Assembly: GCA_003344405.1 (NCBI GenBank)
Contig: NOWV01000083.1
Span: forward strand, 42,119-106,118
DNA from: Trichoplax sp. H2
Lineage: Eukaryota
Direction: 5' to 3'
DNA: 64,000 nucleotides
Shown: one piece after another, positions 1 to 59,111 of the stretch
Layout of the letters: each line of letters opens with the position of its first letter
Numbering within the stretch: the stretch's first letter is position 1
Notes under the pieces: model-generated
Seen by the model: only the letters and a program-made list of their open reading frames with translations
The model's database searches: none
What the model was told of the DNA's origin: nothing
Program-made: the position numbers and the translations under genes

Positions 1-147
1 TGTCTTCCCATGCCGTGACCATACATACATTTTTTTACGTAAGGTATTATCATCAATTTAAAGACGTAGTACTTGAACCATGGTAGGGGCACACACTTGC
101 CGAACCATTCAAAATCTTCGATAAAGCGATTATATACAATTACGGCC
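1..147 (-). CDS. FAXC: FAXC-like (failed axon connections homolog; GST_C metaxin-like domain) copy 1, exon 2, truncated at the window edge
   Basis: Reverse-complement translation gives AVIVYNRFIEDFEWFGKCVPLPWFKYYVFKLMIIPYVKKCMYGHGMGRH. This is collinear with exon 2 of copies 2 and 3 (YGHGIGRH motif). An AG acceptor sits at 148-149 on the minus strand. Confidence 0.75.
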
Positions 148-380
148 CTAAATGTTGTAGGTAAAAGTTTTGAGTTATCATAACGAATTAATACTGTACA
201 CTTGCGCGCATATTTACAAAACAGAAAAGCTATTCGTATTACAATAATCTGATTTTTACCACTCGTGCAGTGTGGCAATTATATAAATGGAATACTCCTA
301 GATCAAACTGATCAGCTCGTACTTATTACAGTGTTATAAAGAACTTTATATCTTTAGAAATGGTACTAGAAATTGCTTAC

Positions 381-838
381 CATATCGTATTTTCCTCTAC
401 AGTCTTTAATATAAAACGAGCCAATGCTTTTTGCTCGGCATCTAGGTGATCGTCAATTTGAACATTAAATCGTTCTGTTAAAAATTCCATTATAAACGTA
501 GAATCGCAGTAGCTTTTGCCATCCAACTCTATCCATGGCATCTTATTTTCTCTACCGAAGGGGTGTCTAAGATCATGTACAAATTCAATGTTAGCCATAC
601 GAAGAAATGTCTGGAGCTTCAACACAAATGGTGACGGATTAACTATCACAGGGCAAGGTCCATCGCCGTGAAGAACTACTAGACCCGGTTTTGCCAGTGG
701 GCTCATATATTCTTTGCATTTATTCCTTGTAAAGCCATAGTAAGTTGCTAATGATGCCATACATGACATAGCTACTACAGTGGTGCCTACTGGGTGATTT
801 AGGACGTATTCAACAATTTGGGATACATCAAACGCCAT
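381..838 (-). CDS. FAXC: FAXC-like copy 1, exon 1 (start codon to phase-2 donor after ..EENTIW)
   Basis: The ORF gives MAFDVSQ...SPLAKPGLVVLHGDGPCPVIVNPSPFVLKLQTFLRMANIEF...WIELDGKSYCDSTFIMEFLTERFNV, a GST_N metaxin-like fold. The donor is TG|GTAAGC, the same split-codon position as in copies 2 and 3. Confidence 0.8.
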
Positions 839-1242
839 CTATCTATGAGCTGTATTTAGTTTTAGTTTTAAGTGAAGATCAAATTACGCACACAGTTAAG
901 TATACAGTATTACACTACACAGCAGTGTCCTGTATTTCACAGAGCACAGTAAATAAATAAATATACTTAGATCTGCTCAATCTATTTTGACTTGAGTATA
1001 AACTGCAGTATATCGATCTGTTTCTTTCGTCAATACAATGTTCACTTGAGACCCTGTCACAGTAATAGTAATTAAAATTATGTAACAGTAAGCATTTAGA
1101 TCATATTATATAGATTGTAATATGGAAAATTAAATGTGCCTATGGTTCTGTTAGAGCACAGTGCAGCAGTCAATAAGGCATGATTACAAGGGGGCATGAT
1201 TAGAGCATGATCAGGGTGTGATTATAAAGCAATAAGAAAGGT

Positions 1243-1378
1243 GGGTATGATTACAAGACAACAAGAAACGTTTGTTCATTGGCCTAATTCCCACTTAACC
1301 GAAAAAAATTAGGAAAATCATTAGGACCAGATCAATGAGCAAGCGTTTCTTGTTGGCTTGTTCTGTAATCATGCCCTA
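1243..1378. repeat. Long imperfect inverted repeat (~45-nt arms, ~60-nt spacer) between FAXC copies 1 and 2; MITE-like or hairpin-RNA-like
   Basis: Left arm gggtatgattacaagacaacaagaaacgtttgttcattg. The reverse complement of the right arm is gggcatgattacagaacaagccaacaagaaacgcttgctcattg. Nearby catgatta motifs repeat at 1190-1250. Confidence 0.6.
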
Positions 1379-2334
1379 ATCTAATTTTAGTAAAATTAAA
1401 TAGTTTTTGATAAGTTATGCAGCAGCAAGCGCTCAGTTAAACTTATTTACAGATAAATTACTAGATAAATAAACGTCGAATAACTACGTTGGTTACACAT
1501 CGCTGCTAGACAGCCAATCAGCACCTGCCTCGTTGACACTAAACATGACTTGTATGAAATTTCTCAAATTATTCTGAGCAAGTCCAGTCAAGAATGTGCA
1601 TAAAGTTATTATTGTATTAATTTAAAGATATGATCACGTTCGCTATTGCTTACTGCAAATGATCTAATACGAAATCATTACTTCATTTGAATGACTCTTG
1701 TTTTCTTTACGAATATACGTTAATACGTTATAAAATCATGTATTGTATATGAGTGCGGTAAACTGTATCTACTGCATTTTATTCGAACAGTTCAAATAGA
1801 TTGCGTATTGCTACGTATTATCAATACACTGTACATATATCTCATAATTATACTTAATACAAGTAGTTATCATAATAATTTTAGGCAAGGAAGAACATAT
1901 ATATTACAAGTCATATACATAACACTATAAAATTGACTAATCAATAAAATAAAATTAATTAATAAATGGTATAGTGCTGTATATTGTACACTACCGTGCA
2001 ACACTCGTAACTTTACATCATACGCTTACAATACGTACATGTGTGTGCATAGTAGTGATAGTACGCGTTTTAAGAATGATGCAAAACCGATGATGTCATT
2101 ATTATATAAACAATATGTATTGGCTTATAGCATAGATATTTATTGAGAGCATTTCAAGATACTCCTCATATCCTTTTATTGCTGGTTTTATTCGAGCTCG
2201 CATCTTGTTATCTGCATTAACATCAGCAACATCTATTAGTCAAGCTATTAGCTGCATCCATTTCATGTTCAAACTTTAATATACTCCTATAATAATCTTA
2301 TTCCATTCCATCTACGAATCTACATCGTATAAAT

Positions 2335-2798
2335 ATGACATCAAATATAGATCACATTACAGATTTTCTTGGAAAGAACCCTTATCCAGTCATTGCCATT
2401 ACTATTATTGGCATTGGAAGCTGCTACTTCTATATAACAGGTGGTCGTAACTCCAAATCTAAATCATTTCCTAAAAGTCCGTTGGCTAAACCTGGTTTGG
2501 TTGTCCTTCACGGTGCTAACCCTGGCAGTTCAATTGTCAATCCATCACCTTATGTGTTAAAGCTGCAAACATTTCTACGAATGGCAAAGATCGAATATGT
2601 ATTTGATCGTAATAACCCTATGGGTAGAAAGGGGAAAATGCCTTGGATCGAGCTTGATGGAGATGCTTATTGCGATTCTACTTTTATAATTGAACATCTG
2701 ACAAAAAAATTCAATGTATCTATTGACCGTAGCCTTAGCGAGCAGCAAAAAGCAGTGGCTCGAGTTATCCAGAAAACGATTGAAGAGAATACAATCTG
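2335..2798 (+). CDS. FAXC: FAXC-like copy 2, exon 1
   Basis: ORF gives MTSNIDH...SPLAKPGLVVLHGANPGSSIVNPSPYVLKLQTFLRMAKIEYVFDRNNPMGRKGKMPWIELDGDAYCDSTFIIEHL...EENTIW. Donor is TG|GTACTA at 2799. Confidence 0.8.
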
Positions 2799-3017
2799 GT
2801 ACTACAAATTAAGCTGATTTTTTATGATGTTTACGACCAGGCTCATTTAGAATGCATGGTAGTTATATTAATTAATTATTTTAATATATCTATGCGTGTA
2901 ACATGTATGCTTATACATATGACGTAAACGTGTATATACGCATCTAGCTACAACTTTACATTTCATTGTATATATATATGTCATATTGTACAGTAATATT
3001 TGACTGTTAATTTATAG

Positions 3018-3432
3018 GGCTACAATAATTTATAATCGCCTTATTGAGGAGGCTGACTGGTTTGTAAACATGATGAAATTTCCCTGGTTTGTTGGGGTAA
3101 TATTCAAGTTATTCTTTGTTCCTCCAGTTAAGAAGAACTTGTACGGACATGGTATCGGCAGACACACACCCCAAGAGATTAGGCACATTGCCAGAGGCGA
3201 TCTGGCAGCTCTGTCTGCCCTGCTTAAAGATAAATCGTTCTTTCTTGGTGATCAACCCACTACAATAGATGCGTGTGTTTTCTCCTTTACTGCTAATATT
3301 ATATATGGGTTACGCCCTGGAAGCTGGCCAAATGAAATGATCAAAAGCGAATTTCCGAATCTTGTAGCATTTACAAATCGTATGAAAGAGAATTATTGGC
3401 CTGATTGGGACGAAATTATTAGCAAAGCATAA
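3018..3432 (+). CDS. FAXC: FAXC-like copy 2, exon 2 (GST C-terminal domain), ends at stop
   Basis: Acceptor is tttatag|G. It completes the TGG (W) codon and continues ATIIYNRLIEEADWFVNMMKFPWFVG...YGHGIGRHTPQEIRHIARGDLAALSALLKDKSFFLGDQPTTIDACVFSF...NYWPDWDEIISKA*. Confidence 0.8.
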
Positions 3433-5134
3433 CGTTAGCTTGAAAAATTATCGTAAATTGCTATCATGAAGAGGACACTGCAGCTCTAAGATCAATTAAT
3501 TATATGACCTTGAAAAAGCCTCATCCATATTTGTGTCACGGGCTAGTACGAATGTACGGTTATACCGGTGCATATAGTAGTCCATGTTTGTGCAATTTTT
3601 AGTAATGTAGAAAAGTTGGTTAGTGAAGTGTGATGTAGCTATGGACCACTACATGCTTTACCATAAAGCATCTACCGAGGTCCATGTTGTAGTAAGCATG
3701 CTATGCTACAGCTGTTTCTGATAAAGAAATGTTAATCTATGTATAATGTATGGTCGACTTATTTCAGATTACAATTATGTATAATTTGATCACCGGCTCC
3801 TTTATAGCTGAGGGCACTAAATTTTGAGAGCCATTTTAAAATTCTTACTGACTGTGAATCTATGTTTAAAAATGTAACCAAGTTTAGCCCCATTTTGTAT
3901 TAGACAAAATAATTTGTAAATTTTCTACTCGTGTATTAAAATAAAATTAATACGGTAGAGACAAGTTATGATTCTGGTCATGGTTAAATACACCTATCGG
4001 TACAACTGCTCATGATACTTGGCATACTCGTACCATATTTAGTATAAAGCTAGAATAACGCACATAACCCACAGATCAATAGAAGTAGGTTTTCTTAACG
4101 TGGTCCGTGACTAATCACGTAAGCTAGACCATGGACCACTAGAAATACTGTAGGAAGGCACTATCTGGCATGAGTTGCGGGTACACAGCCGTAAACTACA
4201 GTCTGTACTCTCAGTAGAGCTTAGCAACAGGCAATGCAATGGAACGTAAATTACTATGTATTAGTAAGTAATATTACTTACTTACTTTTAGAAAAAAATC
4301 AGTCAATTCAGAACCGACTGTCTTCATACTGAAGTCATAACGAGGTATATGACTTAATTTGTTGACGAAATAAGGCCAAGTGTCCGTCCGCCCGCAGGAG
4401 TGTCCATTGTCCATTCCTGTCTGAGCTTACGAAGTCAAAAAGTTTTGGCTGCTGTTATATGTAGTCAAAGGCAATTTGTGAAATTATAGCAATACTATCT
4501 GTAAAGAAGAAGCTCAAAATCATTTACCTGTTCGTTAGTCTGCATTTAACTTTAAGGATCGAGGATTCAGGTATGAAGTGATTTATACATACTGTACTGT
4601 ATAGTATAATTTGTTTTTTAATTCCGTACCGTATCATTGGACTATTTTATAGCTCACCAGTATTCACATTACTCAAATTCTACTAGTATCAGCAATGCAG
4701 AGTCCTATTGACACCTGTTAACAACTGCATAAGTGCATTGTTGATCGTGGAGATTACGACAGTCTCTAGCTCTTGAGATTGTTGTAAGTAATGTTGGAAA
4801 TGATTCAGCACTGTTCTAATAATAAAGCAAAAGGATTAACTGCGAAGCTGTGTGCAATAAGATCTATAAAACACGCAATGCATGTACTGTACGCATGGTG
4901 TAATGAGAGTTCCACTCATTGCATTTTTCGTACGCGTACAAGTTAAATTAAATTTTATTTTAATTTTACTTCAATATTCGTATTTATTGTGCTAGGTTAA
5001 TACGGGCGTTCTAACAGTGTTTGTAACCGGCAGACGGTAACCAGAATACGACTCATCATTATTTATTGGCCTACGGAAGTCAGGTGTTGAGTGTCTTCAG
5101 TACTATACACCCTTGACAGATCTATCAATGGGAT

Positions 5135-5196
5135 ACTATCTGTTAAATGAACACATTATCGTAAACCGTCAGCAAAGCGACGGGAGTTTGCACTAG
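5135..5196 (+). repeat. Copy A of a ~60 bp dispersed element (ACTATCTGTTAAATGAGCACATTATCGTAAACCGTCAGCAAAGCGACGGGAGTTTGCACTAG), ~80 bp upstream of the FAXC copy 3 ATG
   Basis: Near-identical to 41725-41786 and 41476-41532. It contains a CCGTC/GACGG 5-bp stem around an 8-nt loop. Confidence 0.8.
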
Positions 5197-5277
5197 TAAT
5201 ATTTAAAAGCATAGCCGGCATTACTGTACTGTACACTACCTGAGACACTACAGTACTCAACAATAAAGTTAAACAAG

Positions 5278-5729
5278 ATGAACTTTGACCTGTCGTCGCC
5301 CATAAATTTCGCCAGCAGCAATCCGATTGCAGTGGGATCTTTAATAGTTTTATGTGTCGGAGGTTATTTATACATGAGCAAAAAAAAGCCAAAATCATTC
5401 CCTAAAAGTGCCTTAGCTAAGCCAGGGTTAGTCGTCCTTCATGGCGCTGGAGCTGGGAGTACTGTAGTCAATCCATCACCGTTCGTCTTGAAGTTACAAA
5501 CCTTTTTACGAATGGCTAACATCGAATTTGTCCACGATTTGAAAAATCCGTGTGGCAGAAAAAATAAGATGCCATGGATTGAGCTTGATGGAGAAGACTA
5601 CTGTGATTCTACATTTATCATTGAGTTTTTAACGGAAAGATTTAACGTTCAAATTGATAGTCATCTAAGCGACGAACAAAAGGCCGTAGCTCGAGTTATT
5701 CAGAAGACCGTTGAAGAGAATACAGTATG
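5278..5729 (+). CDS. FAXC: FAXC-like copy 3, exon 1
   Basis: ORF gives MNFDLSSP...ALAKPGLVVLHGAGAGSTVVNPSPFVLKLQTFLRMANIEFVHDLKNPCGRKNKMPWIELDGEDYCDSTFIIEFLTERF...EENTVW. Donor is TG|GTAAGT. Confidence 0.85.
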
Positions 5730-6329
5730 GTAAGTTAATTTTTTTATTATACAGTTGACTTCAACCGCGATCGCTTGCTATAATTATATAATCCGTGTAA
5801 GTATATACAGTATTTTATGTAATGTAAAGCGTACTATCTGCAAGCCTTTAGTCTGTATATTGGAGATACGCAAACTACGAATTCTAGATTGAATTCAAAC
5901 AGAGTGACTTGTTGTACCTTAGGACAACATCATTAGAGGCTTTACATCTAATTAACTTCAGGCTTATTCTAAAATTAAACAAGCTTGTAACGAATCGGCA
6001 TAGTTTACTTTACTACAGCTTGTATTATTTCCAACCATATTAACTAACGATGCTGCACGCGTTAAATATTACCTGTAAATGAACCTAATGTAGCGGCTAT
6101 AACGATAGTGATACGAAAAGCAGGTTTCAATCGAATTAAGATAAAATTGTATTGGCAATAAAGTAGGCAAATTTTTGATATGTTATAATGTATTGCAATT
6201 ATTTTTGAGTCTACAACAGTCCCTATCTTAAAATGGCGATCTATTGTATGTCTATTTGATCTTAAATTTCTAATAGCCAACTGTAGTAGTGGATCCATAA
6301 TAATTTTATCATTGATTATATAACTATAG

Positions 6330-6756
6330 GGCTGCAATCATCTATAATCGTTGGATTCAAGATACCGATTATTTCCGTCAGATGATGAAGCTCTCCTGGT
6401 TTGTTGGCCGGATATTAAAGATGGCTGTTGTACCTGCAATTAAGAAAAGCATGTACGGCCATGGAATTGGTAGGCATTCCGCAGAAGAGATTCAGCACAT
6501 AGCTAGAGGTGACATTAAAGCGCTCTCGGATCTGCTTAAGGACAAGCAGTTTTTTTTTGGTGATAAACCGACTACAATCGATGCTTGTGTGTTTGCTTTT
6601 CTTGCCAATGTTCTTCATGGTTTGCGTAAAGATAGTTGGCCGGCTGAAATGGTAAGGAACGAATTTCCTAATCTTGCAGCTTACTTTGAACGCATAAAAG
6701 AGAATGTTTGGCCAGACTGGGATGAAATCGTTAGTAAAGCTGGCTCGAAAAAATAA
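6330..6756 (+). CDS. FAXC: FAXC-like copy 3, exon 2, ends at stop
   Basis: Acceptor is ctatag|G. Translation gives (W)AAIIYNRWIQDTDYFRQMMKLSWFVGRILKMAVVPAIKKSMYGHGIGRHSAEEIQHIARGD...WPDWDEIVSKAGSKK*. Confidence 0.85.
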
Positions 6757-6970
6757 GATCAAGTATTATATAGTAACAACTTTATACTTTGTAGTTTTAG
6801 TGATTCATAAGATTATAACTTTGCTTTTATAAAGGCAGCGATAAAAGATATAGATATATTTAATGAATCTGTTACTCATTTAAAAAATTGGATTAGACTA
6901 GTAAACTACCATATTCTATTTTTACGAAATTGCTGACGCGTATAAAAAGCAGGAATTCAACTGCGACACT

Positions 6971-7232
6971 ATTCGATAATAGGCAAGTTCTTATGGGATT
7001 TATCGGACTGTTTTATATGGTAGAGCAACTATAAGGGACTAACCATCCTTTTTTGCTATTACTTACGTAATGCTCTACACTTAATTCGCTGCTTATACAA
7101 TATTCGATAGTAGACAAATTTTTATGAAATTTATCGAACCGTTTTATGTGGTAGAGCAACTAGAAGGGGCTAAACATCCTTTACTTTTACTTACGTAATA
7201 TTGTATACTTAATTCGTTGCTAAGAAATACTG
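6971..7232. repeat. Tandem duplication, 2 x ~130 bp, ~80% identical, just 3' of FAXC copy 3
   Basis: Unit 1 is attcgataataggcaagttcttatgggatttatcggactgttttatatggtagagcaactataagggactaaccatcc...ttacgtaatgctctacacttaattcgctgct. Unit 2 is tattcgatagtagacaaatttttatgaaatttatcgaaccgttttatgtggtagagcaactagaaggggctaaacatcc...ttacgtaatattgtatacttaattcgttgct. Confidence 0.85.
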
Positions 7233-8524
7233 ATGTACCTCGATATATTATTATTTACGGTCCAGTATTTGACGTCTCCCAAGCTAAGCGTCTGATACAA
7301 GCCGCAGCTTATATGGCTCTTTAAGAAAATAACACAATAAAGTCAATATAATTTTAATATTTAGCTTCCAAAATAACTATTCAATGATGCTTAGACATAT
7401 CTTAGTGGAAGCGTTGCTATTTCCAATTGTTTTACTCCATTGATCTGCAGGACGAAGGTTTGCATGAGTTTTATCTTTCGTACTGGATTCGCGAATACAT
7501 AATTATTAAATCACCTTAACATAACCATTACCGCAACTCTTGCAAATAACGCTATGAAAATATCTTGGAATTTTTTTTCATGATGGCTTGAGCTGCCGCC
7601 TGCATAATTTATAATCGTATTACTCTTATACTCGTACATGTATGTCAGCAATTCAAGTTAAAGCTTGACGAATTATAAATACTATTTCATTCTCCTTTCA
7701 TTTAAATATAAATGTTGTTAATATGAGAGAATGATCTTTGATATTATTATAGTTTTGTTTCTCAAAGAGTATTTATCATTACTATTAGCTACCGTTATTG
7801 CAGAGCCGAGAGGATTTGACCGGTCTAAATTTGCAGTGATAGTGTAACATCCAAGATCCCGTGATCTTTACAAGTAATTAATTATTCACTGAAGACTACA
7901 TGGAAAAATTCAAGAAAAACAACATAGATTTGCAATTTGAGAACTGTGCACAAGAGGGGGAAGACTAAGAGTTAAAGAATCACCAAGAGTTCATATTATT
8001 CACGCAATCCCTTAAAATTTAGACGTACTAAGAATAACTATATTCATTTAGTAGTAGCAAACATTTCTCCTACGCAAGTTAGTTTAATCTCGTGCTAAGT
8101 TTTAATTGGAGTATAGTCTCTTAAAAAGGATCCATCATCAACCACGAAACTACTATATCAACAAGGTTTACTAAGCACAGTACCCGCTACAGTACTGTAC
8201 AGTGTACAAGTGTGAGCCAGTTCTCTTTAGATTGCTATTAGGCAAAATAAATTGTAGTAAACTTGCAAAATTTGCCTTAAATTCTATACATACAGATAGA
8301 TGAAGGAACGATCTATCCACTTTTAAAACTATAATTCAGTAAATATCCTCCTGATTTGAAATAATTACAGTAGAAAATTCGGAATTTAATACAATATTAC
8401 GTAAAAGTTGCTCTAATAACCTCATTTTAATCAATTAAATTAAAAAGCCAAGTTATTCAGCTTTACATTCGTTTAATTCTTATTACATTTTGATTCACAC
8501 TCGTGATTTTAGGGTACCTTAAAG

Positions 8525-8700: not shown

Positions 8701-9993
8701 GAGAAGACAAGCTGCTACGCTTGGCCGATTGATTGATTGAATTTGAGGGTGTTGTCGATTGTGTTACCTAGATTCATTCGGTTCATCAAAGATTGCATAT
8801 GAATTAGGCACTGTGCAAAATTAGTTGTCACCCCATGAACCGTTTCTTCTTTAATAGCGTAGTAAAAGACGAAGTAAAGATGAAAATAACATGACAATTC
8901 GTTTTGCACACTACTGGAGATTACCAAACTTGCGGCCTGGTTAGATTAGACACTCAGTTAATTTGCAGCTGTTACCCGTCGGCGCTGTTATTAACAATAC
9001 TGCTGTAGGCAGCAGATGAGTTAATAACTATCTATAACTATATAATTTCTGGTAAAAAGTAATTTCATTTTTCTTATTGACGATGCCTTCTGTCTTGCTG
9101 TTATACAGCTCGAAGGGAAAGGAGTGCGGAAATTCATCAACTTCTGAAAGGTTGAGGTAATAAGGAAATTAAGATATTTACAATGAATATCTTACACGTA
9201 CGTTAACGTTAAACTACCTCAGTATTACTAATGATAATTGTGTGTGTATTTGCTATTACTTTCACAAGCGTTTATCTACTACATAATATATGGATATTTA
9301 TCATTGACAGTTGATTGAATGTAAAGCATTAGGATCTGTAATCGTCGATCTGTCGTAAATTTCTTGACATTATACATACAGTACTATACGTAGAGCTAAG
9401 AAAGGTTCGGTTATAACTAATTAGATTATTCAGTTTTAGTTGTCTTAGGTATTTCGTTTATAAATTCAATGTAGGGGTTAAGAATGATCATACTAAGATA
9501 GTGCATACTGTACAGAACAGTGTATAGTATCTTAGTATGATCATGCACTGAAATAGAATCTAATCTAATAGCACCTCAAAATTATTTCACGAAAACTCTT
9601 GAAATCTTAACAATAATATTATCATTCAATGAGGCTGATCATTACTTTGTGATTCTGTGCTATATTGTTGTAATTGCTGATAGATTATAATTATAGCACA
9701 GACTTAAAAATCACTAGACCATTAATATTGTAAAAATAGGTAGAACATTAGTCTGTATTCCAGGGCCATTCTGAGTAACATGTCTTCTTGTATTGGAGAA
9801 ATTTACCTAGCCAATAAATCGTCGAGTCTCTAGAAATTGACTTGTTGTGTATTCTCTAAATCCGTATTTTAGATATACTGTACTTTACTGTACATTGATG
9901 AATTATAATGGCTCATTTAGAAAATTTGTTTGTATTCACTTTCGCCTATGTTTTAACTAGGAAATTCTAGTAGACCGTGGCTTTAGACACGCA

Positions 9994-24745: not shown

Positions 24746-25063
24746 ATGCCGAATACCGACATGGAAGAGCCGATGCAAGAACCAGATGAAACAAAGCCTA
24801 GCCTCACTCGAGCCTTAAGTATATCAGACGTATACCAAGTTGCTGCTGATATCGGCCGTGACTTTGAGACTATAGCCCAAAAATATGGCCAGGACATAAT
24901 TTTTGATTTAATGCCTAAAGTCATAGGAACGTTGGAAAATATGGAAAAACTTGTGAATCAACAAAGTTCCGAACATAAACTCATTGAGCAATTAAATGTA
25001 GAAAACGATAGATTAAAATTTGAACATAAAAAGGAATTATCTAATAGAAAGAAAGTTGAAGAT
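24746..25063 (+). CDS. RILPL1: RILP-like (RH1/RH2 domain) protein, exon 1 with RH1 domain
   Basis: MPNTDMEEP...ISDVYQVAADIGRDFETIAQKYGQDIIFDLMPKVIGTLENMEKLVN...KKVED aligns to the RILPL1 RH1 segment VMDVYDIASLVGHEFERVIDQHGCEAIARLMPKVVRVLEILE. Donor is GAT|GTAAGT. Confidence 0.8.
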
Positions 25064-27999
25064 GTAAGTACCATTTCACTATTAATTTGCCATTTTAATA
25101 TCAATCTAAGCGTAAGACGAGAGAACACAGCAGCCTTATGTAGCAAATACACAGTATTGTCAACAAATGGTATTATGATATCAAACATCGGATCAATAAA
25201 GTAGACCAAGCCCATTCCAAAAATGCAGGGTACTTTGAGGTTAAAGATAGGAATTAAAGCCAACGCACGTCTTTTACTTGAAATATGATAATACCTATAC
25301 GATTATCCTAGTTTGAGACATTGTAAACTAGCACCAGATGTAGATATTAGTGTAATCAAAACATTAATAAGGCCGTTGGTTCATGCCTAAGGCCAAATAT
25401 TAAACCATATTTGATGACGAAACGGATAAAACTCTAATTAAACATTCGTATGACTGTATCCATCGAGCTTAAGCTTCATTCAAACTGTTATTAACTAGTT
25501 GCACCATACATATATTAGATATGCCACCGTTTTCATTTATAGTTTGCATCAACAGTACTTTTATCTGTTACAGTAGTCGTAATCTTTCATTTCTGATTCC
25601 TCGTAATTACCATCCGGATTAGTTCTAGATCATGATTTTTTGAAATATAACTGATAGCCAGCCATCACGGAAATATGCTATTTAGCCAATATAACGCAGA
25701 CATCAGTGAAGCGATAATGTATTTGCAGATAATACACATGCACCAGCGACAGTAATGCTGACTGAATTAAAGAATACGTTTACTATATTTTTATTGCTAT
25801 GGTATAATAACGTTATGAGTACATTAGTTTGATATAAGTAGCGTTATGATCGTGTTCAATTGTAATTATTATTAGTTCATATAAAATAGACACTTGCATT
25901 AAAATGTAATGTAGGATATCAAAGTTATTATCCTAGATTTGTTTCATACTACAGAATATAGAGAGTAATATATAATTGGAATGAGAAGAGATAGATATTA
26001 GAATCTTATCATACCGTTAAAAAGAACCCTCAGTTAGATAATTAAATATTCAATATTATTTGTGAATCTTAATCTAAATAAGATCCTTTTAGCTTAACAT
26101 GAATATCTTTCATTAATGCAATAACTTAGCAAGCACTTTGCAATTGAACAACGTAGTGATGAAAAATTATGATTTTTAAGAACATCAATAATTTAAAGCA
26201 TTCCAAAATAATGTAAATTAAATTAATCTGCCTATTGCTGCAATATTTCATTTTCGAATTTCTGTTACATGATATTATAGAATTAGATAGACAAAAATAT
26301 CACTAATGGCGCCTTTAATTAAACGTGTATGCCTTACAATACTTTATTTAGCACTGCAATGAAATCGAAATTTTAAGTATTAATCTAGAATAATAATTAA
26401 CGCTATAGATCTCTTTTATTTTACTTGATGTAAAAATGTATATAATAATCCCAATCTTTTATTAAGGAGAGTGTACCGTAATTAGTAACATACGCTTCAT
26501 TCTCAACAAAGCAAGCGGTATTGAATGATTATTCGAAATAAAAGATTTACCGGTACGGAAGTACCTAGTAAGTTCATATATTATATTTTATAACCAGTTT
26601 TAGCTTTGTAATTAATTTTATTTTGCACATCTATGAGATATTTCGGACTTCTGCATATAATTCAGGATGTGAAAGGACATTAAGATTTACAACCGCGTAA
26701 AATCACATGATAAAATGTTTTCTGTTCAAAAAAATTTATCGGAGACTTACTCTATGTTATTTAATGTAACACAAATAAAATTGTTGGTAATGAATGGCCA
26801 TATTTTACAATACGACATAATGACCAAGTGTCATACATGAGTTACGTAACTACGCTATAATAATATTTTCAATGCCCTATTTCACCACCGTACGGTACTT
26901 GCATAAGCGGTAGTTCAATGGTTTCAAAATTGCTTACTAATTAATGTATAGTATTGGCATAAAAATGGCTCACTAGCTTCTATAAATTAATTAATCATTA
27001 TTTACGAATAACTTCTTAAATGATAATTTACAATTAGTCAAGACTATTGCAGTAATGCATTTGTCTTTATCTTTAATATTTAAAACTTTATATTTTTCTT
27101 CCGAAATGAATTTATTTGGTACCTTAAAAGATTTTAAGAGGAATTTACGCAGCAAATTTTATGAGAATTCATAGGGCGTCAGTAGTTTATCAATTTTCTT
27201 CAAATGTGGAATATTATCATCTACCGTATAACTCCAAAAGTATGCACGTAGGTCTTATACCTTATTTAATGTCCGGTGTAGGTTAAAAACATATGTCGGC
27301 AATAGAGATTGGATACTGGCTTAGTCAAGATTCTATGAAGTCTATATTGTTGTCTGATAGTAATCATAACTTAGGTTTATACAGCAACAATTGAGATTTA
27401 ATAAAATTCTAAATTAAGGGCAATCGTAAGAAATGACCAAATGACATCTTGTGCAACTTATCCTCCCAGTTTTGTTATGGAATATCTACCATACAAAATT
27501 TACTTACTCTAATGTCGTCGTGTATCCGTGTCATTTTCTAAAGGGCTTGCTTAAAATTTTTAAGAAATTGGATGACAGTTATATAAATCCTAAATCTTAA
27601 GATCGCATAAGGATTATGGAAACTAATGAATTCTACCACAATTCTCGCGGATTTCTAAGCAGATAATTAAACGAGCAAAGGATGTTTGGGTTTTAACATC
27701 TATTAGAAACTTTTGTTTTATTATAATTTCTCAATATAAATATTTTACTCTATGGTTCCAAGATAGTAACATATCGTTGCATTGTTTTATTATGAAAGAA
27801 ATTTACCGATTGATTGCGTTGTGATTTGGAAATTGTGGTTATTTATGACTATCTTAAGAAGAAATAGAGTATAGCGATCACTGTAAATAACGAATTACCA
27901 TATTGTTACACTTATTGAATATCATTAAGAGAAAAAATCGCTACTATGTGTACATAAGAGGGCTTTAAACTTATACTATTTCCAACGTTTATGATTCAG

Positions 28000-29248: not shown

Positions 29249-30116
29249 GTAAGCAATTATCCAATCATGGTCTTATTCATTAAATATAATAAATTATACT
29301 GAATATCAGCCTTGTATTCGTATACTAAAGGATGTATATTAATCTATAACATTTAGTTGAAGGCTGACATTTTATTGGATCTATCATAAATCAGTAGGCA
29401 AGATATCAACTATTTTTTACGTATAATTTAGGCTAAATTTACTGAAACTCCGATTTTCAACACCTTCCAATCGCAAATCTACTGAATATATCAAGGCTAA
29501 TCAGAGCGGAGGAATTCGAGGATTGTACGTAGTAATAATTGCTGATTTTACTACTACTGATAATCGTGTACGTAGTTTATTTCTACTTCTGCAGCAGTGC
29601 TCAGACTAATCTTAAAAAGTCTTAGGCATACGAGTATATTGATAGATCTGTGAGGTGCTACAGTATATGAGCTACTATAGCAATAGTCTCGTGTGCTTGT
29701 TATGCTTTTAAATGTGTTAATATATATATACACTTACTGATCAGTGTTCTTTAGTAAATGCATCATAATAATCAAGTGATAAAATATAAAGGTATAAATT
29801 AACATTTATGCTACAGCAAGATACGTTTAAATTATATATAGATAGTATGAATAGTTATAAAGCTATCTAGAATTAGTAAATGGAGCAAGATGCAGTATAA
29901 TTGCAAAGTTAATGGGCATGGTATGAAATTATTATACCGTGAAGTTTTTGAGTTTAACTACACCTTTGGCAAAAATTTGATATTTGAATATAATTATAAC
30001 TATAGCTGTAAAGATACATGTTAAGCTAAGTTAATAATCTTAAATTGATAGCTATAACTAGCTTCTTGGTATCAAGTTTTTAGTACGCAAATTTAACTAA
30101 TGATATCGCACTTTAG

Positions 30117-30765
30117 TTTTAAGATGTTTAATGCTAAACATCAAACGGAAATCTCAGAAGGCAACAAAAGCTCAGAAGTTATTAGCCACAGCAATCAAAA
30201 CAGTCAAAAATCTTCTCCTATCATTATGAAACGTCACTTTGCCTCGCCAGCTACCAGGCAATCTACACCGAACCTAGCGTCTGAGTCTAAACCTCGCCGA
30301 TTTAGTTTTGACCGAAGTGTATTTTCATTACGTTCTTCTCCAAGAGCAACGAAAAAACAGTCTGACGAAGCAGTGATAATTGGTGATGGTAATCCTAATA
30401 GCAACAAAAACGGCAGTAAGCCATCAAGCAAAAAGTCTATAAAGAGCTTAAGTACAGTTAGTGTAAATCAACCTTCTACTAGTAAACCGAAGATGACAAG
30501 ATCAACTTCAATAGAACATTATATGTCGAAATTTGGGCATCGAAAATTAACTCGTCAAGATGCGTCTGATTTAATGAACCCTAATGCAGATTTCGAAGAT
30601 AATACCCAATCAAGTCGTCAGATGCGATACGAATCGATGCAACTTATTGCACAATCTTTTGATAACGATTCTATTGTTATATCGCACTTCGATAGTAATT
30701 CAAACAGCAGCAATGAAAATCAAGACATTCAAGATAAGAGCGGTTGCAGTCCATCAAGTCTGTGA
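30117..30765 (+). CDS. RILPL1: RILP-like terminal exon (S/N-rich low-complexity tail; stop TGA at 30763-30765)
   Basis: The phase-matched acceptor is at 30115-30116. Translation gives (D)FKMFNAKHQTE...SKPRRFSFDRSVFSLRSSPRATKKQSD..., which aligns to the RILPL1 C-terminal motif GIKRLFSFFSRDKKRLANTQ. A long serine-rich disordered tail follows. Confidence 0.6.
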
Positions 30766-38041: not shown

Positions 38042-38923
38042 TTATTTACCGTGAATCATTGCGTTGTCTTTTGCTGTTGTTTTGAGCTGCTTAACAGAAT
38101 CATGAGTAGCTTCAAGGTTGCGATCTTCGCCACGGTTTTCGGCGACTTCTACTGATACTTTCGATAGCAGATCGGTACTAGCCTGCAGTAACTGGGATTC
38201 TGACGGTGGAAAGCCAAAGGGCGGTTCGTTGGTAATAGTCTGATGCCCTTCATCAGAACCTCGCGAGGTATTATCATCTAAATTCTTCAATTCCTGATCT
38301 GTAATAATCTTAGGTGAAGAATCAACATTAGAAGATTTTCGTCCATCAATAATATTGCCTTCAAGGGTCATCTCTGAAGAATTACTACGTTCGACTTTAG
38401 GTAATCGTGAAGGAGATGGTGATGATGTACGGTGACTACCGTCGATACTGTTATCTCTATGACCTCGATTTCCTCTTCCACTCTTGCCACGTATCAAATA
38501 ATCATTCTTTCTTGTCTTATTTCTAGATTGTGAACGCTTATCAGGGGAGAATTTATGTTCATTACTCCCGCTACCATATGATCTTCGATGACCTCTTTCG
38601 TCACGCTGTCTATCGCTGCTCTTACCAAATGGCTGACCGCTACTCGTAGTATGTTCAGTTGATCTAAGCCTCCAGTTATTTGGATCGCGCCAATTCTCGT
38701 TATTGCTTCTACTATTTTTACTACCACTGCTATTGACATTACCACTGTTACTGCTACTATTTGGATTAATTCTACTCTTACTAGTAGAAAAACTGTTACC
38801 ACTATCAGTACTATGATTATTTTTATTAGGATTACTATTAGAGTTACTACTACGTCGCTGGCTTTGATAGCTTTCTTCATCCATTTCTGACAATATGCGA
38901 GCTTGCTCTTTAATGCGCTCTAT
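38042..38923 (-). CDS. Ser/Asn/Arg-rich low-complexity nuclear-type protein, large terminal exon (SR-related?), identity unknown
   Basis: Acceptor ttttctag at 38924-38925. 294 codons reading IERIKEQARILSEMDEESYQSQRRSSNSNSNPNKNNHSTDSGNSF...RSQSRNKTRKNDYLIRGKSGRGNRGHRDNS...*. Strong compositional bias. Confidence 0.6.
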   Translation of the reverse strand: MERIKEQARILSEMDEESYQSQRRSSNSNSNPNKNNHSTDSGNSFSTSKSRINPNSSSNSGNVNSSGSKNSRSNNENWRDPNNWRLRSTEHTTSSGQPFGKSSDRQRDERGHRRSYGSGSNEHKFSPDKRSQSRNKTRKNDYLIRGKSGRGNRGHRDNSIDGSHRTSSPSPSRLPKVERSNSSEMTLEGNIIDGRKSSNVDSSPKIITDQELKNLDDNTSRGSDEGHQTITNEPPFGFPPSESQLLQASTDLLSKVSVEVAENRGEDRNLEATHDSVKQLKTTAKDNAMIHGK

Positions 38924-48996: not shown

Positions 48997-49644
48997 GCAG
49001 AAGGGTCCGATGACGAAGAAGGTGAAAGTCAACTTGCCATCTTTAAATTTCCTGCGAAGAATATGTTATCATCTACTAATGCGCTTGCAAATAAAGACGG
49101 CAATGAAATCAATCGCTCATGGACCGATGCAGAAAAATATCGAGTGCAGAAAGATGCTGCTAAAGCGATAACGGCAAATAATGACACTGGAAAACCTTCC
49201 AAGAAATCTTCTAAGCCCAAAGATATTGCTATAACAACTAATAAGGCCAGCAAAATTAATCAACGCAGTGTATCATCCCAAGATCTTAGTGGTCCTATTC
49301 CTAGTAAAAGATCACCTTTACCAAAGACGCCAGAGCATGAAGTTATTACTCAACCATCAGTGTCTCCGCGATCAAGAAAATCAAGCGGTGAAAGAAGCCA
49401 ACATATTTCACGTTATAATGCGCTAACTGTATTAGATGCAACAATTAGAGATGGGTTAAAAGAAAATTTACGAGCTTTAATCACTACTAAACAAGTGCAA
49501 GCAGAGCAGGCTTTGGAAGTCGCGTTAACACGCGATCATTTGACTGGAAATCATATTGCAATCGTTGATTTTTTGATCAAAAATGAGTTTATCGACATGT
49601 CGACTTTTGTAACGGCAGAAACATTAGAGAGAATATATGATAAA
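48997..49644 (+). CDS. TRPM: TRPM exon containing a long S/K/P-rich disordered insert, then MHR4
   Basis: 216 codons. ~120 aa are low-complexity (NKDGNEINRSWTDAEKYRVQKDAAKAITANNDTGKPSKKSSKPKDIAITTNKASKINQRSVSSQDLSGPIPSKRSPLPKTPEHEVITQPSVSPRSRKSSGERSQ..). Then ..NHIAIVDFLIKNEFIDMSTFVTAETLERIYDK aligns to NKPEFVKLFLENGVQLKEFVTWDTLLYLY. An analogous disordered insert occurs in TRPM6/7 and TRPM1/3. Confidence 0.75.
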
Positions 49645-50136
49645 GTAAGATTGTGCTGGACGCTATATGAAAATATCTTGACTTGCTATTCGGAAGATAA
49701 CCGTATTTTGCAATATCAAATTACTTTATACTTATTAGTATTTTTCTTACTTGCGTAGTTGAGTAGTAATAGCCAGTTACTAAACGATTCCTATTTATAA
49801 GACATATTGTCGTTCATCATTGAAGTAATTAAATAGATTTTTGTAATACTTTAAAATTTGATACTTGTATTTCTGGAAAGCATTGCTACATTGTTTCAGG
49901 TAGAACTTATTGGTTATTTTTAAAATCTAATTAGACTTGGAATATACCTTCCTCTGTGATGTACTGGGCGCGGAAGATCAAAATAATCAAGGAGGTAAGC
50001 CTTTAGTCAAGTCAGAGTGATCATTTCATGGATATAAGTTACGTACCATTTGCAATGGTCGGAATAAATATTTTTACTGATTTTAGGAGAGAAATACCAT
50101 TACATAGCCTAGTAAGTTTATATTTGATATTTTTAG

Positions 50137-57594: not shown

Positions 57595-57793
57595 GTGGGT
57601 GATAATAGTGTACTACCAACTTGGGATCTATTTAGTGAATTGAGGCGATTAATTTTGATCTGTAAAAATTGAACACCCACTTGTTATCCAGTTTATTGAG
57701 AAATGCAGTATACCTGCTCGTGATAATATTCTCATGTCATCATAATTGATTGAAGGCTGCTTACTAACGATACTACTTTTATTTGATCGCCAG

Positions 57794-58328
57794 GCGAAAA
57801 TGAGTAAATTGTGGTCGTATGATCCAAAATGTTGTATACGCAAAAAACGAGGCTCTGGAAACAATTGGGCTCTTGGATATTGCATGGATGGCGATCAAGT
57901 TTTACTAGAAGAAATTATGGACAGCGTGCAAAGGCAAGTTGAGTACTGCGATCGATTTAGTGGATTTTTGCTATTAATGAGTTTAGCTGGTGGAACTGGA
58001 TCTGGTCTAGGTACGCGATGTACCGAAGAGTTACGAGATCGTTATCCTAATAGTCAGATTATCAATGAAGTTGTTTGGCCTTACAGTAATGGAGAAGTTA
58101 TTGTTCAAGATTACAATACTATTTTAACTCTTTCTCATTTATATAAGGCATCAACTGGACTCATTATTCTAGAAAATGATAAATTACATGAAATATGTAC
58201 AAGACTGCTCAAAATAAAAAATGTGGGCTTTCATCACATTAATAGAGTCATTGCTCATAAATTAGCTGGAGTTTTGTTACCTTCTACTTGCTTGCAAAAT
58301 CAACACTCAAAACGAAATGACTATGCAG
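57794..58328 (+). CDS. TUBD1: TUBD1 exon 2
   Basis: [120 protein letters not shown]... aligns to [86 protein letters not shown].. Confidence 0.9.
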
Positions 58329-58412
58329 GTAATATCTATCGCACAGGTTGCACTAATTACAGTATACGTACGGTATTATTGATTGTTCACTTCTTTGCAT
58401 TCTTATCTTCAG

Positions 58413-58592
58413 GGATAAATATCTTCGGTGAGATCGGGGAGCATCTATGTAGTCATACCGATTACAAGTTGTTGAATATTATAGATATCCCTCAGATTCC
58501 TGATCACTCTTTCGATTACACCAATTATAATTGGCACGGACTGTTAAAACATCTCCATCAAATGCTAATTGCAAATGCATTTATGGAGGAAA
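58413..58592 (+). CDS. TUBD1: TUBD1 exon 3
   Basis: (G)INIFGEIGEHLCSHTDYKLLNIIDIPQIPDHSFDYTNYNWHGLLKHLHQMLIANAFMEE aligns to [58 protein letters not shown]. Confidence 0.85.
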
Positions 58593-58736
58593 GTAAGTAT
58601 ACTCATATTGAGGTGAATTTTATATTTTCCGTTATTACAGTCTACAGGGATATCCGCTCGAGAAATTACGTAGATCTGAAAAAGTGTAACATAATTGCTT
58701 TCTTTTTACTTACTAATTCGGCTTTAAAATTTTTAG

Positions 58737-58892
58737 ACATCAAATGGGAAGTTAAGTTACCATCCCCTAAAGCACTATCTCAAAATAAAAAGCTGGCGAA
58801 GTTATCATCTGGATTGCCTGTTCATAGCGACGTTATGGTTAATAAATCAATCGCAAATATGTTGGTAATTCGAGGGACTGAAATCGATAAAG
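58737..58892 (+). CDS. TUBD1: TUBD1 exon 4
   Basis: (N)IKWEVKLPSPKALSQNKKLAKLSSGLPVHSDVMVNKSIANMLVIRGTEIDK aligns to [43 protein letters not shown]. Confidence 0.85.
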
Positions 58893-59111
58893 GTAGATTG
58901 TATACTGTGTATTTATTCACTTTACGTATTAGCCACGGTGTAAGATAGGATGATTGCTAGATTAGGCCAAGATTTTTGCTGTGATAGGCCATTGGTATCG
59001 TTGCAGCTTAGCAGTAAAATAACGTAAAAGTATCATAAGTAATCGTAGACGGTGTCACCTTGCTAATATTAAATACAATTCTCTATTAAGCTGATATAGG
59101 CGCGTTTAGAG

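What the first reader, a model, noticed from the sequence alone, without database searches (positions are those of the whole stretch)
1..6756. Inverted tandem triplication of a FAXC-like GST-fold gene with conserved intron position and phase
Three paralogs of the FAXC-like (metaxin-like GST_N plus GST_C) gene sit within 6.8 kb. Copy 1 is on the minus strand and copies 2 and 3 are on the plus strand, so copies 1 and 2 are head-to-head (divergent), sharing ~1.5 kb of upstream sequence. All three split the W codon of ..EENTIW|A.IIYNR.. after its second base. Protein identity is only ~60-70%, and the introns differ in length (~230, 219 and 600 nt). This points to an old local expansion under selection, not a recent duplication.
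Basis: partly seen in the sequence, partly recalled or inferred. Interest (0 to 1): 0.55.

Follow-up and report, generated by a model that had tools for sequence, protein, structure and literature searches.

The report
Known FAXC-like gene cluster in Trichoplax
The three neighbouring genes are real, intact, old copies of a glutathione-transferase-fold ("failed axon connections"-like) gene in the placozoan Trichoplax, but they are already annotated in GenBank, belong to a four-gene cluster, and are ordinary for this family.

Summary
Window 1-6756 holds three two-exon genes with Pfam GST_N_4 + GST_C_6. Each has a GT..AG intron (233, 219, 600 nt) that splits the Trp codon of EENT[IV]W as TG|G (phase 2).

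Corrections:
- Copy 1 is cut by the window start, so only 201 of 293 aa are visible.
- Protein identity is 55-65%, not 60-70%.
- In the 98.5%-identical T. adhaerens scaffold, a fourth copy lies just left of the window (order → ← → →).

The window is Trichoplax sp. H2. All four proteins match GenBank RDD41081-83 and RDD41086 ("Failed axon connections-like protein") exactly.

The "old, under selection" reading holds. Synonymous sites are saturated and dN is 0.25-0.39. Exons diverge about 3 times less than intergenic DNA between H1 and H2. A metagenomic placozoan fragment groups with copy 2.

The shared intron says nothing about this cluster. The same TG|G intron occurs in coral and acorn-worm FAXC genes.

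Multi-copy FAXC genes and clusters in Trichoplax (at least 12 genes) are already published (Adolph 2023).

Likely function (inferred): membrane-anchored glutathione-binding GST-fold proteins. The nearest solved relative is the epoxide-conjugating GST StyI, not the metaxins.

Interest is low.

The parts
1..147 (-). Copy 1, exon 2, truncated by the window start. It encodes G of the split Trp codon plus AVIVYNRF...GHGMGR. The remaining ~92 codons lie outside the window.
   Evidence: The full gene is seen in T. adhaerens L002 13951..13528. The exact protein is RDD41081.1.
148..380 (-). Copy 1 intron, 233 nt, GT..AG, phase 2 inside the Trp codon.
   Evidence: and the sequence.
381..838 (-). Copy 1, exon 1 (ATG at 838). 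It carries the N-terminal hydrophobic segment and the GST_N_4 domain, ending ...EENTIW (TG|).
839..2334 (.). Divergent (head-to-head) intergenic region between the ATGs of copies 1 and 2, 1,496 bp. It has no similarity to the other upstream regions. It contains a 29-nt inverted repeat at 1253-1281/1333-1361.
2335..2798 (+). Copy 2, exon 1.
   Evidence: The protein is identical to RDD41082.1.
2799..3017 (+). Copy 2 intron, 219 nt, GT..AG, phase 2.
3018..3432 (+). Copy 2, exon 2 including the stop codon (GST_C_6 domain). The protein is 292 aa.
5278..5729 (+). Copy 3, exon 1.
   Evidence: The protein is identical to RDD41083.1.
5730..6329 (+). Copy 3 intron, 600 nt (608 nt in T. adhaerens H1), GT..AG, phase 2.
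6330..6756 (+). Copy 3, exon 2 including the stop codon. The protein is 292 aa.

Best explanation
This is the right-hand three-quarters of a four-gene tandem cluster (order → ← → →) of FAXC-like genes in the placozoan Trichoplax sp. H2. The genes carry Pfam GST_N_4 and GST_C_6.

Shown:
- The cluster arose by ancient local duplications within the placozoan lineage. The four copies form an exclusive clade.
- All copies are kept intact by purifying selection.
- The single phase-2 intron is inherited from the ancestral animal FAXC gene.

Inferred function:
- Each protein is a roughly 290-aa GST-fold protein held at a membrane by an N-terminal hydrophobic helix followed by a basic patch.
- Each has an intact canonical glutathione site: a Ser-Pro at the start of helix α1, a Pro before strand β3, and an Asp-Ser at the start of α3.
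- I therefore think they are glutathione-binding, probably catalytic, Ser-type transferases acting on hydrophobic electrophiles at a membrane surface.
- The tandem expansion would be the usual diversification of a detoxification or stress gene family.
- The enzymatic part is inference, at roughly 0.35-0.4. The identity and evolutionary part is at or above 0.95.
For: Gene structures, domains and copy number.

Species and prior annotation:
- The window is 98.5% identical to T. adhaerens DS985249.1.
- The proteins match Trichoplax sp. H2 RDD41081/82/83/86 exactly.

Age and selection:
- pS is 0.73-0.88 and dN is 0.25-0.39.
- DNA similarity is confined to exons.
- H1-H2 divergence is 0.38% in exons, 0.95% in introns and 1.29% in intergenic DNA, p = 3.7e-4.
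- The NJ tree places the four copies in a clade with 100% bootstrap. The metagenomic fragment P0005 joins copy 2 at 95%.

Ancestral intron: the same TG|G site occurs in three Stylophora genes, in Saccoglossus and in P0005.

Function:
- The AF2 model has pLDDT 88.6. It shows an N-terminal helix at 16-34 and a thioredoxin-like plus helical domain.
- S67, P99, D110 and S111 are invariant or nearly invariant across 14 animal homologs. They sit at the N-cap of α1, before β3 and at the start of α3.
- The nearest solved relative is StyI: phmmer E = 4e-15 with aligned SPF, K-x-P and DS motifs, and Foldseek TM 0.85, rmsd 2.3 Å.
- The aligned part of the StyI sequence (residues 38-256 of the chain, taken from the alignment) scores above Pfam's gathering cut-offs for the same GST_N_4 and GST_C_6 families.
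- StyI conjugates glutathione to styrene oxide at 48 U/mg (PMC8552685).
- Hydropathy peaks of 1.68-1.69 occur at residues 16-37 in copies 2 and 3, and 2.12 in the coral homolog.
Against: - No expression, localisation or activity data exist for any copy. None could be obtained here.
- Identity to StyI is only 24%.
- The N-terminal segments of copy 1 and copy 0 did not reach the 1.2 peak threshold in the scan (by my own hand calculation about 0.9-1.1 on the Kyte-Doolittle scale). The AF2 confidence there is only 62-75.
- Human FAXC is predicted to heterodimerise with metaxin 2 and was found in mitochondria (PMC10452860, PMC11145136). That fits a non-enzymatic adaptor role equally well.
- The NJ tree is a simple distance tree. 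The order of duplications within the cluster is weakly supported (58%).
Confidence: 0.85

Rival explanations
1. The proteins are non-catalytic, metaxin-like adaptors anchored in the mitochondrial outer membrane. They would act through protein-protein contacts, for example heterodimers with metaxin 2 or the SAM/MIB complex. The copies would then diversify binding partners rather than substrates.
For: - Weak Tom37 hits, and Sam35 among the fold matches.
- A human FAXC-MTX2 heterodimer is predicted by AlphaFold-multimer (PMC10452860).
- FAXC is reported in mitochondria (PMC11145136).
- A moderately hydrophobic N-terminal helix followed by basic residues resembles signal-anchored outer-membrane proteins. 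This is my inference.
Against: - The Tom37 scores (18-23.5 bits) are below Pfam's cut-off of 25.1.
- Sam35 matches are far weaker (TM 0.55-0.6, E about 1e-7) than StyI (TM 0.85, E 7e-13).
- The canonical G-site residues are strictly conserved, whereas the metaxin G-site is described as blocked.
Confidence: 0.3
2. Copies 2 and 3 are not independent genes. They would be alternative exon sets of one transcription unit, producing mix-and-match proteins such as exon 1 of copy 2 spliced to exon 2 of copy 3.
For: - The 2008 T. adhaerens model TRIADDRAFT_28700 is exactly such a chimera: copy 2 residues 96-155 joined to copy 3 exon 2.
- Identical intron phase makes any such join in-frame.
Against: - The model starts at an internal Met and skips two complete exons, which is typical of a homology-stitched prediction.
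- The evidence-based Maker annotation of Trichoplax sp. H2 calls copies 2 and 3 as separate full-length 292-aa proteins (PMC6057997).
- Each copy has its own ATG, N-terminal helix and stop codon.
Confidence: 0.03
3. It is a recent duplication, an assembly artefact, or includes decaying pseudogenes.
For: None beyond the physical proximity of the copies.
Against: - Paralogs are only 55-65% identical, with saturated synonymous sites.
- There is no intron or intergenic similarity.
- The same arrangement is present in two independent assemblies, H1 and H2.
- All reading frames are intact, and exons are about 3 times more conserved than intergenic DNA.
Confidence: 0.01

Closest known systems
Clustered multi-copy FAXC genes of invertebrates (Adolph, bioRxiv 10.1101/2023.01.04.522723 and 10.64898/2026.01.05.697642)
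   Same: - The preprints report at least 12 FAXC genes in T. adhaerens, six of them in one genomic region on both strands.
- They report clusters in Exaiptasia (11 genes), Stylophora and Pocillopora (4 each).
- Paralogs are 40-60% identical.
- I saw a three-gene Stylophora cluster with a head-to-head pair myself.
   Different: - The preprints do not discuss intron positions.
- They used the truncated or chimeric 2008 T. adhaerens models.
- They state that no transmembrane helix is present in FAXC proteins, whereas the full-length copies here (at least copies 2 and 3) and the coral homolog have an N-terminal hydrophobic helix.
- I could not establish whether their figure shows this exact cluster.
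GenBank annotation of Trichoplax sp. H2 (Kamm et al. 2018, PMC6057997): RDD41081.1, RDD41082.1, RDD41083.1, RDD41086.1 'Failed axon connections-like protein'
   Same: The sequences are exactly identical to the proteins I spliced by hand from the window and from the H1 locus.
   Different: Nothing differs. This is the same locus, already annotated.
StyI / IsoI-type bacterial glutathione S-transferases (PDB 9qd3; PMC8552685)
   Same: - Same Pfam pair, GST_N_4 + GST_C_6.
- Best sequence and fold match among solved structures.
- Shared SPF, K-x-P and DS G-site motifs.
   Different: - Identity is only about 24%.
- StyI is a soluble bacterial enzyme in a styrene-degradation operon.
- The placozoan proteins carry an N-terminal hydrophobic helix, and their activity is untested.
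Drosophila Fax / vertebrate FAXC
   Same: Same domain pair, and the family name is given by the databases. The phase-2 intron in the EENxxW Trp codon is shared with a deuterostome FAXC.
   Different: - They are not one-to-one orthologs. The four copies form a placozoan-only clade.
- They lack the long charged C-terminal tail seen in the Hydra, Rhopilema and mite homologs (440-480 aa).
- Trichoplax has no neurons, so the 'axon' role cannot transfer.
Metaxins / Sam35-Sam37 (mitochondrial SAM complex)
   Same: Same GST-fold superfamily, with extra helices inserted between α4 and α5. There is distant sequence and fold similarity.
   Different: - The Tom37 score is below the cut-off.
- The TM-score is only 0.55-0.6.
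- The G-site is conserved here, whereas it is described as blocked in metaxins.
- The anchor is N-terminal rather than C-terminal.

Membership tests
FAXC-like GST-fold family (Pfam GST_N_4 + GST_C_6) | GST_N_4 (PF17172) above the gathering score | tested here: met
   88.7-99 bits against a cut-off of 30 for copies 1-3. 94.7 bits for copy 0 and 87.6 bits for full-length copy 1.
FAXC-like GST-fold family (Pfam GST_N_4 + GST_C_6) | GST_C_6 (PF17171) above the gathering score | tested here: met
   68.7-78.6 bits against a cut-off of 28 for copies 0-3. For copy 1 this domain lies outside the window and was tested on the H1/H2 sequence.
FAXC-like GST-fold family (Pfam GST_N_4 + GST_C_6) | Closest named homologs are 'failed axon connections' proteins of other animals | tested here: met
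   coral, Hydra, mollusc, hemichordate and arthropod FAXC at 32-43% identity, E 1e-50 to 1e-128.
FAXC-like GST-fold family (Pfam GST_N_4 + GST_C_6) | One-to-one orthology with Drosophila fax / human FAXC | tested here: not met
   The NJ tree places the four copies in a placozoan-only clade (100% bootstrap). That clade sits among other animal FAXC-like lineages and is not sister to a single bilaterian gene.
Metaxin / Tom37 family | Tom37 (PF10568) domain above the gathering score | tested here: not met
   18.3-23.5 bits against a cut-off of 25.1. No Tom37 hit was listed for copies 0 and 1 at E <= 0.001.
Metaxin / Tom37 family | Association with SAM50 at the mitochondrial outer membrane | not testable with these tools
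   This needs localisation or co-purification experiments.
Catalytic Ser-type cytosolic-fold GSTs (IsoI/StyI-like) | Thioredoxin-like N-domain plus helical C-domain, close to a solved active enzyme | tested here: met
   AF2 model with pLDDT 88.6. Foldseek to StyI 9qd3 gives TM 0.85, rmsd 2.3 Å, E 7e-13.
Catalytic Ser-type cytosolic-fold GSTs (IsoI/StyI-like) | Conserved G-site elements: Ser at the α1 N-cap, a Pro before β3 (the position of the cis-Pro in canonical GSTs), and Asp/Glu-Ser at the α3 start | tested here: met
   - S67 and P99 are invariant, and P68, D110 and S111 are at least 90% conserved, in 14 homologs.
- They align to SPF, LP and DS of StyI.
- Assigning roles to these residues rests on general GST knowledge.
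Catalytic Ser-type cytosolic-fold GSTs (IsoI/StyI-like) | Glutathione binding and conjugating activity | not testable with these tools
   This needs biochemistry.
Tandemly duplicated gene cluster | Adjacent paralogs with no intervening unrelated gene, forming a clade | tested here: met
   Four copies lie within about 10.7 kb in T. adhaerens L002 (9812..20541).

The most novel reading that the evidence does not exclude
Animal FAXC-like proteins may be membrane-tethered, catalytically active glutathione transferases rather than metaxin-like scaffolds. They would belong to the same class as the bacterial epoxide-conjugating enzymes IsoI and StyI. The repeated tandem expansions in placozoans, cnidarians, molluscs and amphioxus would then be a so-far unrecognised detoxification or lipid-electrophile defence gene family of early animals. 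A minor variant: shared intron phase lets neighbouring copies produce in-frame chimeric proteins.
Probability: 0.3. Interest if true: 0.45.

Novelty: already known. Interest (0 to 1): 0.12.

Why it matters
As a genome feature it matters little. It is a correctly spotted but ordinary lineage-specific tandem gene family, already annotated and already noted in the literature.

Three by-products are modestly useful:
1. The widely used 2008 T. adhaerens models for this locus are wrong. Two are N-terminally truncated, and one (TRIADDRAFT_28700) is a chimera of two neighbouring genes. Analyses based on them miss the N-terminal hydrophobic helix.
2. The phase-2 intron in the EENxxW Trp codon is shared by placozoans, corals and a hemichordate. 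This makes it a very old intron in this family.
3. The closest solved and biochemically characterised relative of FAXC-type proteins is an active epoxide-conjugating GST. This gives a concrete, testable hypothesis for a family whose function is essentially unknown.

Tried and rejected
- I looked for further copies or pseudogene fragments in the other 57 kb of the window, using tblastn with 3 + 6 family members at E up to 10. I found none.
- I looked for intron or intergenic similarity between copies, which would indicate recent duplication or gene conversion. Only the exons match.
- I tried to fetch the Trichoplax sp. H2 contig itself, to see copy 0 in the window's own genome. Its gene positions are not in the index, so the fourth copy rests on two things: the 98.5%-identical H1 locus, and the exact H2 protein RDD41086.1 on the same 328-kb contig as the other three.
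- I searched papers for the T. adhaerens locus tags to find expression data. There were no hits. The placozoan cell-atlas paper does not mention FAXC or GST in its main text.
- The Mizuhopecten gene locus could not be fetched.
- Rfam and tRNA scans of the window found nothing.
- The sigma-70 promoter scan was not used because the organism is an animal.
- Jukes-Cantor dS could not be computed for most paralog pairs because pS exceeds 0.75. I therefore report saturation rather than a precise dN/dS. Where it was computable, dN/dS was 0.085-0.12.
Full report
**What is in the sequence**

Reading window 1-7500 and listing ORFs shows three pairs of open reading frames. After splicing at GT..AG sites they give closely related proteins.

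| Copy | Strand | Exon 1 | Intron | Exon 2 | Protein |
|---|---|---|---|---|---|
| 1 | minus | 838..381 | 380..148 (233 nt) | 147..1, then leaves the window | 201 of 293 aa visible |
| 2 | plus | 2335..2798 | 2799..3017 (219 nt) | 3018..3432 | 292 aa |
| 3 | plus | 5278..5729 | 5730..6329 (600 nt) | 6330..6756 | 292 aa |

- In all three, the donor follows the second base of the Trp codon of EENT(I/V)W, and the acceptor supplies the G. This is phase 2.
- The start codons of copies 1 and 2 face away from each other, 1,496 bp apart.
- tblastn with these and six more family members finds nothing else in the 64 kb.
- Pfam gives GST_N_4 for all three and GST_C_6 for copies 2 and 3, well above the gathering scores. 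Tom37 stays below its cut-off.

**Corrections to the observation**

1. Copy 1 is truncated by the window edge. About 92 codons are missing, so 'no frameshifts' could not be known from the window.
2. Measured protein identities are 55.2%, 59.6% and 64.9%. This is somewhat lower than the stated 60-70%.
3. The cluster is larger than three genes.
   - The window is 98.5% identical to Trichoplax adhaerens scaffold DS985249.1.
   - In that locus (L002), a fourth paralog ('copy 0', plus strand, 289 aa) lies tail-to-tail with copy 1. It has a 356-nt intron at the same TG|G site.
   - The order is → ← → →, within about 10.7 kb.

**Which organism, and whether it is already known**

- Copy 2 is identical to a Trichoplax sp. 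H2 protein.
- An exact-sequence look-up shows that all four hand-spliced proteins are GenBank entries of Trichoplax sp. H2 named 'Failed axon connections-like protein'.
  - Copy 1 is RDD41081.1, copy 2 is RDD41082.1, copy 3 is RDD41083.1, and copy 0 is RDD41086.1.
  - All four lie on one 328,311-bp contig.
- That annotation was evidence-based (Maker with transcriptome data; PMC6057997).
- Adolph's preprint (10.1101/2023.01.04.522723) already reports at least 12 FAXC genes in T. adhaerens.
  - Six of them are in one region, three on each strand.
  - Comparable clusters occur in Exaiptasia. The 2026 follow-up adds Stylophora, Pocillopora and Octopus.
- The feature is therefore known both in the databases and in the literature.

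**An annotation problem in the older T. adhaerens models**

- TRIADDRAFT_28855 (copy 1) and TRIADDRAFT_5603 (copy 0) lack their N-termini.
- TRIADDRAFT_28700 is a chimera. It joins residues 96-155 of copy 2 exon 1 directly to exon 2 of copy 3, skipping two exons.
- The identical intron phase makes this join in-frame.
- I regard it as a prediction artefact, because the H2 annotation separates the genes. Junction reads would settle the matter.

**Age and selection**

- Between paralogs, pN is 0.21-0.30 (dN 0.25-0.39). pS is 0.73-0.88, which is at or beyond saturation. Where dS is computable, dN/dS is 0.085-0.12.
- DNA similarity between copies is limited to exons at 71-74%. Introns and flanks do not match.
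- Between the window (H2) and H1, divergence is as follows:
  - Exons differ at 0.38% of sites, with no indels.
  - Introns differ at 0.95%.
  - Intergenic DNA differs at 1.29%, plus 42 gap columns.
  - Fisher tests give p = 3.7e-4 for exon versus all non-coding, and p = 2e-4 for exon versus intergenic.
- A bootstrapped NJ tree of 32 family members gives three results:
  - The four copies form an exclusive clade (100%).
  - Copies 2 and 3 are nearest neighbours (83%).
  - A metagenomic placozoan fragment (P0005) pairs with copy 2 (95%). It is 72% identical to copy 2 exon 1 and has a GT donor at the same site.
- Hence at least the copy 2/copy 3 duplication predates the split from that other placozoan lineage.
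- Other Trichoplax FAXC-like genes (TRIADDRAFT_28248 and 22364) fall outside the clade.

**The intron**

- The same phase-2 intron inside the Trp codon of EENTYW is present in three clustered Stylophora pistillata genes, two of which are also head-to-head.
- It is also present in the five-exon FAXC gene of the hemichordate Saccoglossus.
- It is therefore an ancestral intron of the animal family. It carries no information about this particular expansion.
- One other Trichoplax paralog (22364) is intronless.

**What the proteins probably do (inference)**

- An AlphaFold2 model of copy 3 has mean pLDDT 88.6 and pTM 0.81.
  - It shows an N-terminal helix (residues 16-34, lower confidence).
  - It shows a thioredoxin-like β-α-β...β-β-α domain and an all-helical C-domain.
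- Kyte-Doolittle 19-residue peaks at the N-terminus are 1.68-1.69 for copies 2 and 3, and 2.12 for the coral homolog.
  - Copies 0 and 1 did not reach the 1.2 threshold in that scan. By my own hand calculation they are weaker, about 0.9-1.1.
  - In every copy the segment is followed by a Lys/Arg-rich patch.
- This contradicts the statement that FAXC proteins lack transmembrane helices. That statement was based on truncated models.
- Across 14 animal homologs, S67 and P99 are invariant, and P68, D110 and S111 are at least 90% conserved.
  - In the model they sit at the N-cap of α1, just before β3, and at the start of α3.
  - These are the three canonical glutathione-site elements of cytosolic-fold GSTs. 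That assignment rests on general GST knowledge.
- The nearest solved structure, by sequence and by fold, is StyI of Gordonia rubripertincta (PDB 9qd3).
  - By sequence: phmmer E = 4e-15, with the motifs aligned.
  - By fold: Foldseek E = 7e-13, TM 0.85, rmsd 2.3 Å.
  - The aligned part of the StyI sequence (residues 38-256 of the chain, taken from the alignment) scores above Pfam's gathering cut-offs for the same GST_N_4 and GST_C_6 families.
  - StyI conjugates glutathione to styrene oxide (PMC8552685).
- Sam35 (the metaxin side) matches much more weakly, at TM 0.55-0.6.
- I therefore favour a membrane-tethered, glutathione-binding and probably catalytic protein, at about 0.35-0.4.
- I rank it above a non-catalytic metaxin-like adaptor (about 0.3). 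The adaptor model is suggested by the predicted human FAXC-MTX2 dimer and by the mitochondrial localisation of human FAXC.
- Neither model can be tested with sequence tools.

**Verdict**

- However, it is a four-gene cluster and the intron is ancestral.
- The locus is already annotated, and clustered FAXC expansions are documented.
- Novelty: already known. Interest: low (0.12).

Noticed in passing
Window-wide. Clusters at about 4.59k, 5.22k, 8.19-8.68k, 9.5-9.9k, 17.7-19.7k, 22.3-23.6k, 34.07-34.34k, 40.8-42.6k, 44.36-44.40k, 55.3k, 56.8k, 62.8-62.95k and 63.9k.: Pentamer-periodic (GTACW)n tracts such as ACTGTACTGTACAGTAC are hugely over-represented. ACTGTACWGTAC with up to 1 mismatch gives 188 hits against 0.97 expected (maximum 4 in 100 shuffles). 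One tract (5223-5239) sits about 40-55 nt upstream of copy 3's ATG, and a similar one lies about 100 nt upstream of copy 0 in T. adhaerens (L002 ~9701-9722). It might relate to the promoter-hub / Mutator-TIR motif reported for placozoans (PMC12221973). That paper's text does not give the motif sequence, so the link is untested.
   Followed up: partly
T. adhaerens locus L002 16416-20541 (corresponds to window ~2620-6756): The JGI gene model TRIADDRAFT_28700 (XP_002114981.1, UniRef100_B3S4C6) is a chimera of copy 2 exon 1 (from an internal Met) and copy 3 exon 2. TRIADDRAFT_28855 and TRIADDRAFT_5603 are N-terminally truncated. The Trichoplax sp. H2 models are the correct ones.
   Followed up: yes
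Window 6966-7093 and 7097-7221: Two tandem units of about 128-131 nt (83-85% identical) lie immediately downstream of copy 3's stop codon. Their nature is unknown. They could be a 3'UTR or terminator-region repeat, or a small mobile-element remnant.
   Followed up: no
Window 1253-1281 / 1333-1361: A 29-nt inverted repeat (90% complementary, 51-nt spacer) lies in the divergent intergenic region between copies 1 and 2.
   Followed up: no
Stylophora pistillata locus L003 2008-11886: This is an independent three-gene FAXC-like cluster in a coral (− − +). It contains a head-to-head pair separated by about 650 bp and the same two-exon structure. The annotated 341-aa protein P0115 appears to read through part of the intron region.
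   Followed up: partly
Protein search results: Bacterial (Pseudomonadota) 'glutathione S-transferase family' proteins of about 233 aa are as similar to the placozoan copies (35-40% identity over about 77%) as most animal FAXC proteins are. The family is thus unusually well conserved between bacteria and animals. This is already noted by Adolph 2025 (bioRxiv 10.1101/2025.01.06.631459). The direction or existence of horizontal transfer was not examined.
   Followed up: no
T. adhaerens locus L006 10001-10807: The paralog TRIADDRAFT_22364, which groups next to the cluster clade with only weak support (60% bootstrap), is a single-exon gene on another scaffold. This suggests intron loss or retroposition.
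   Followed up: no
Window 24746-25204, 30100-30765, 38042-38893 (−), 49063-49758, 57746-58948: These long ORFs are exons of unrelated genes. They include Ser/Asn-rich low-complexity proteins. I guessed that 57.7-58.9k might be tubulin-like from reading the translation, but I ran no domain search on it. No tRNA or Rfam matches occur anywhere in the window.
   Followed up: no
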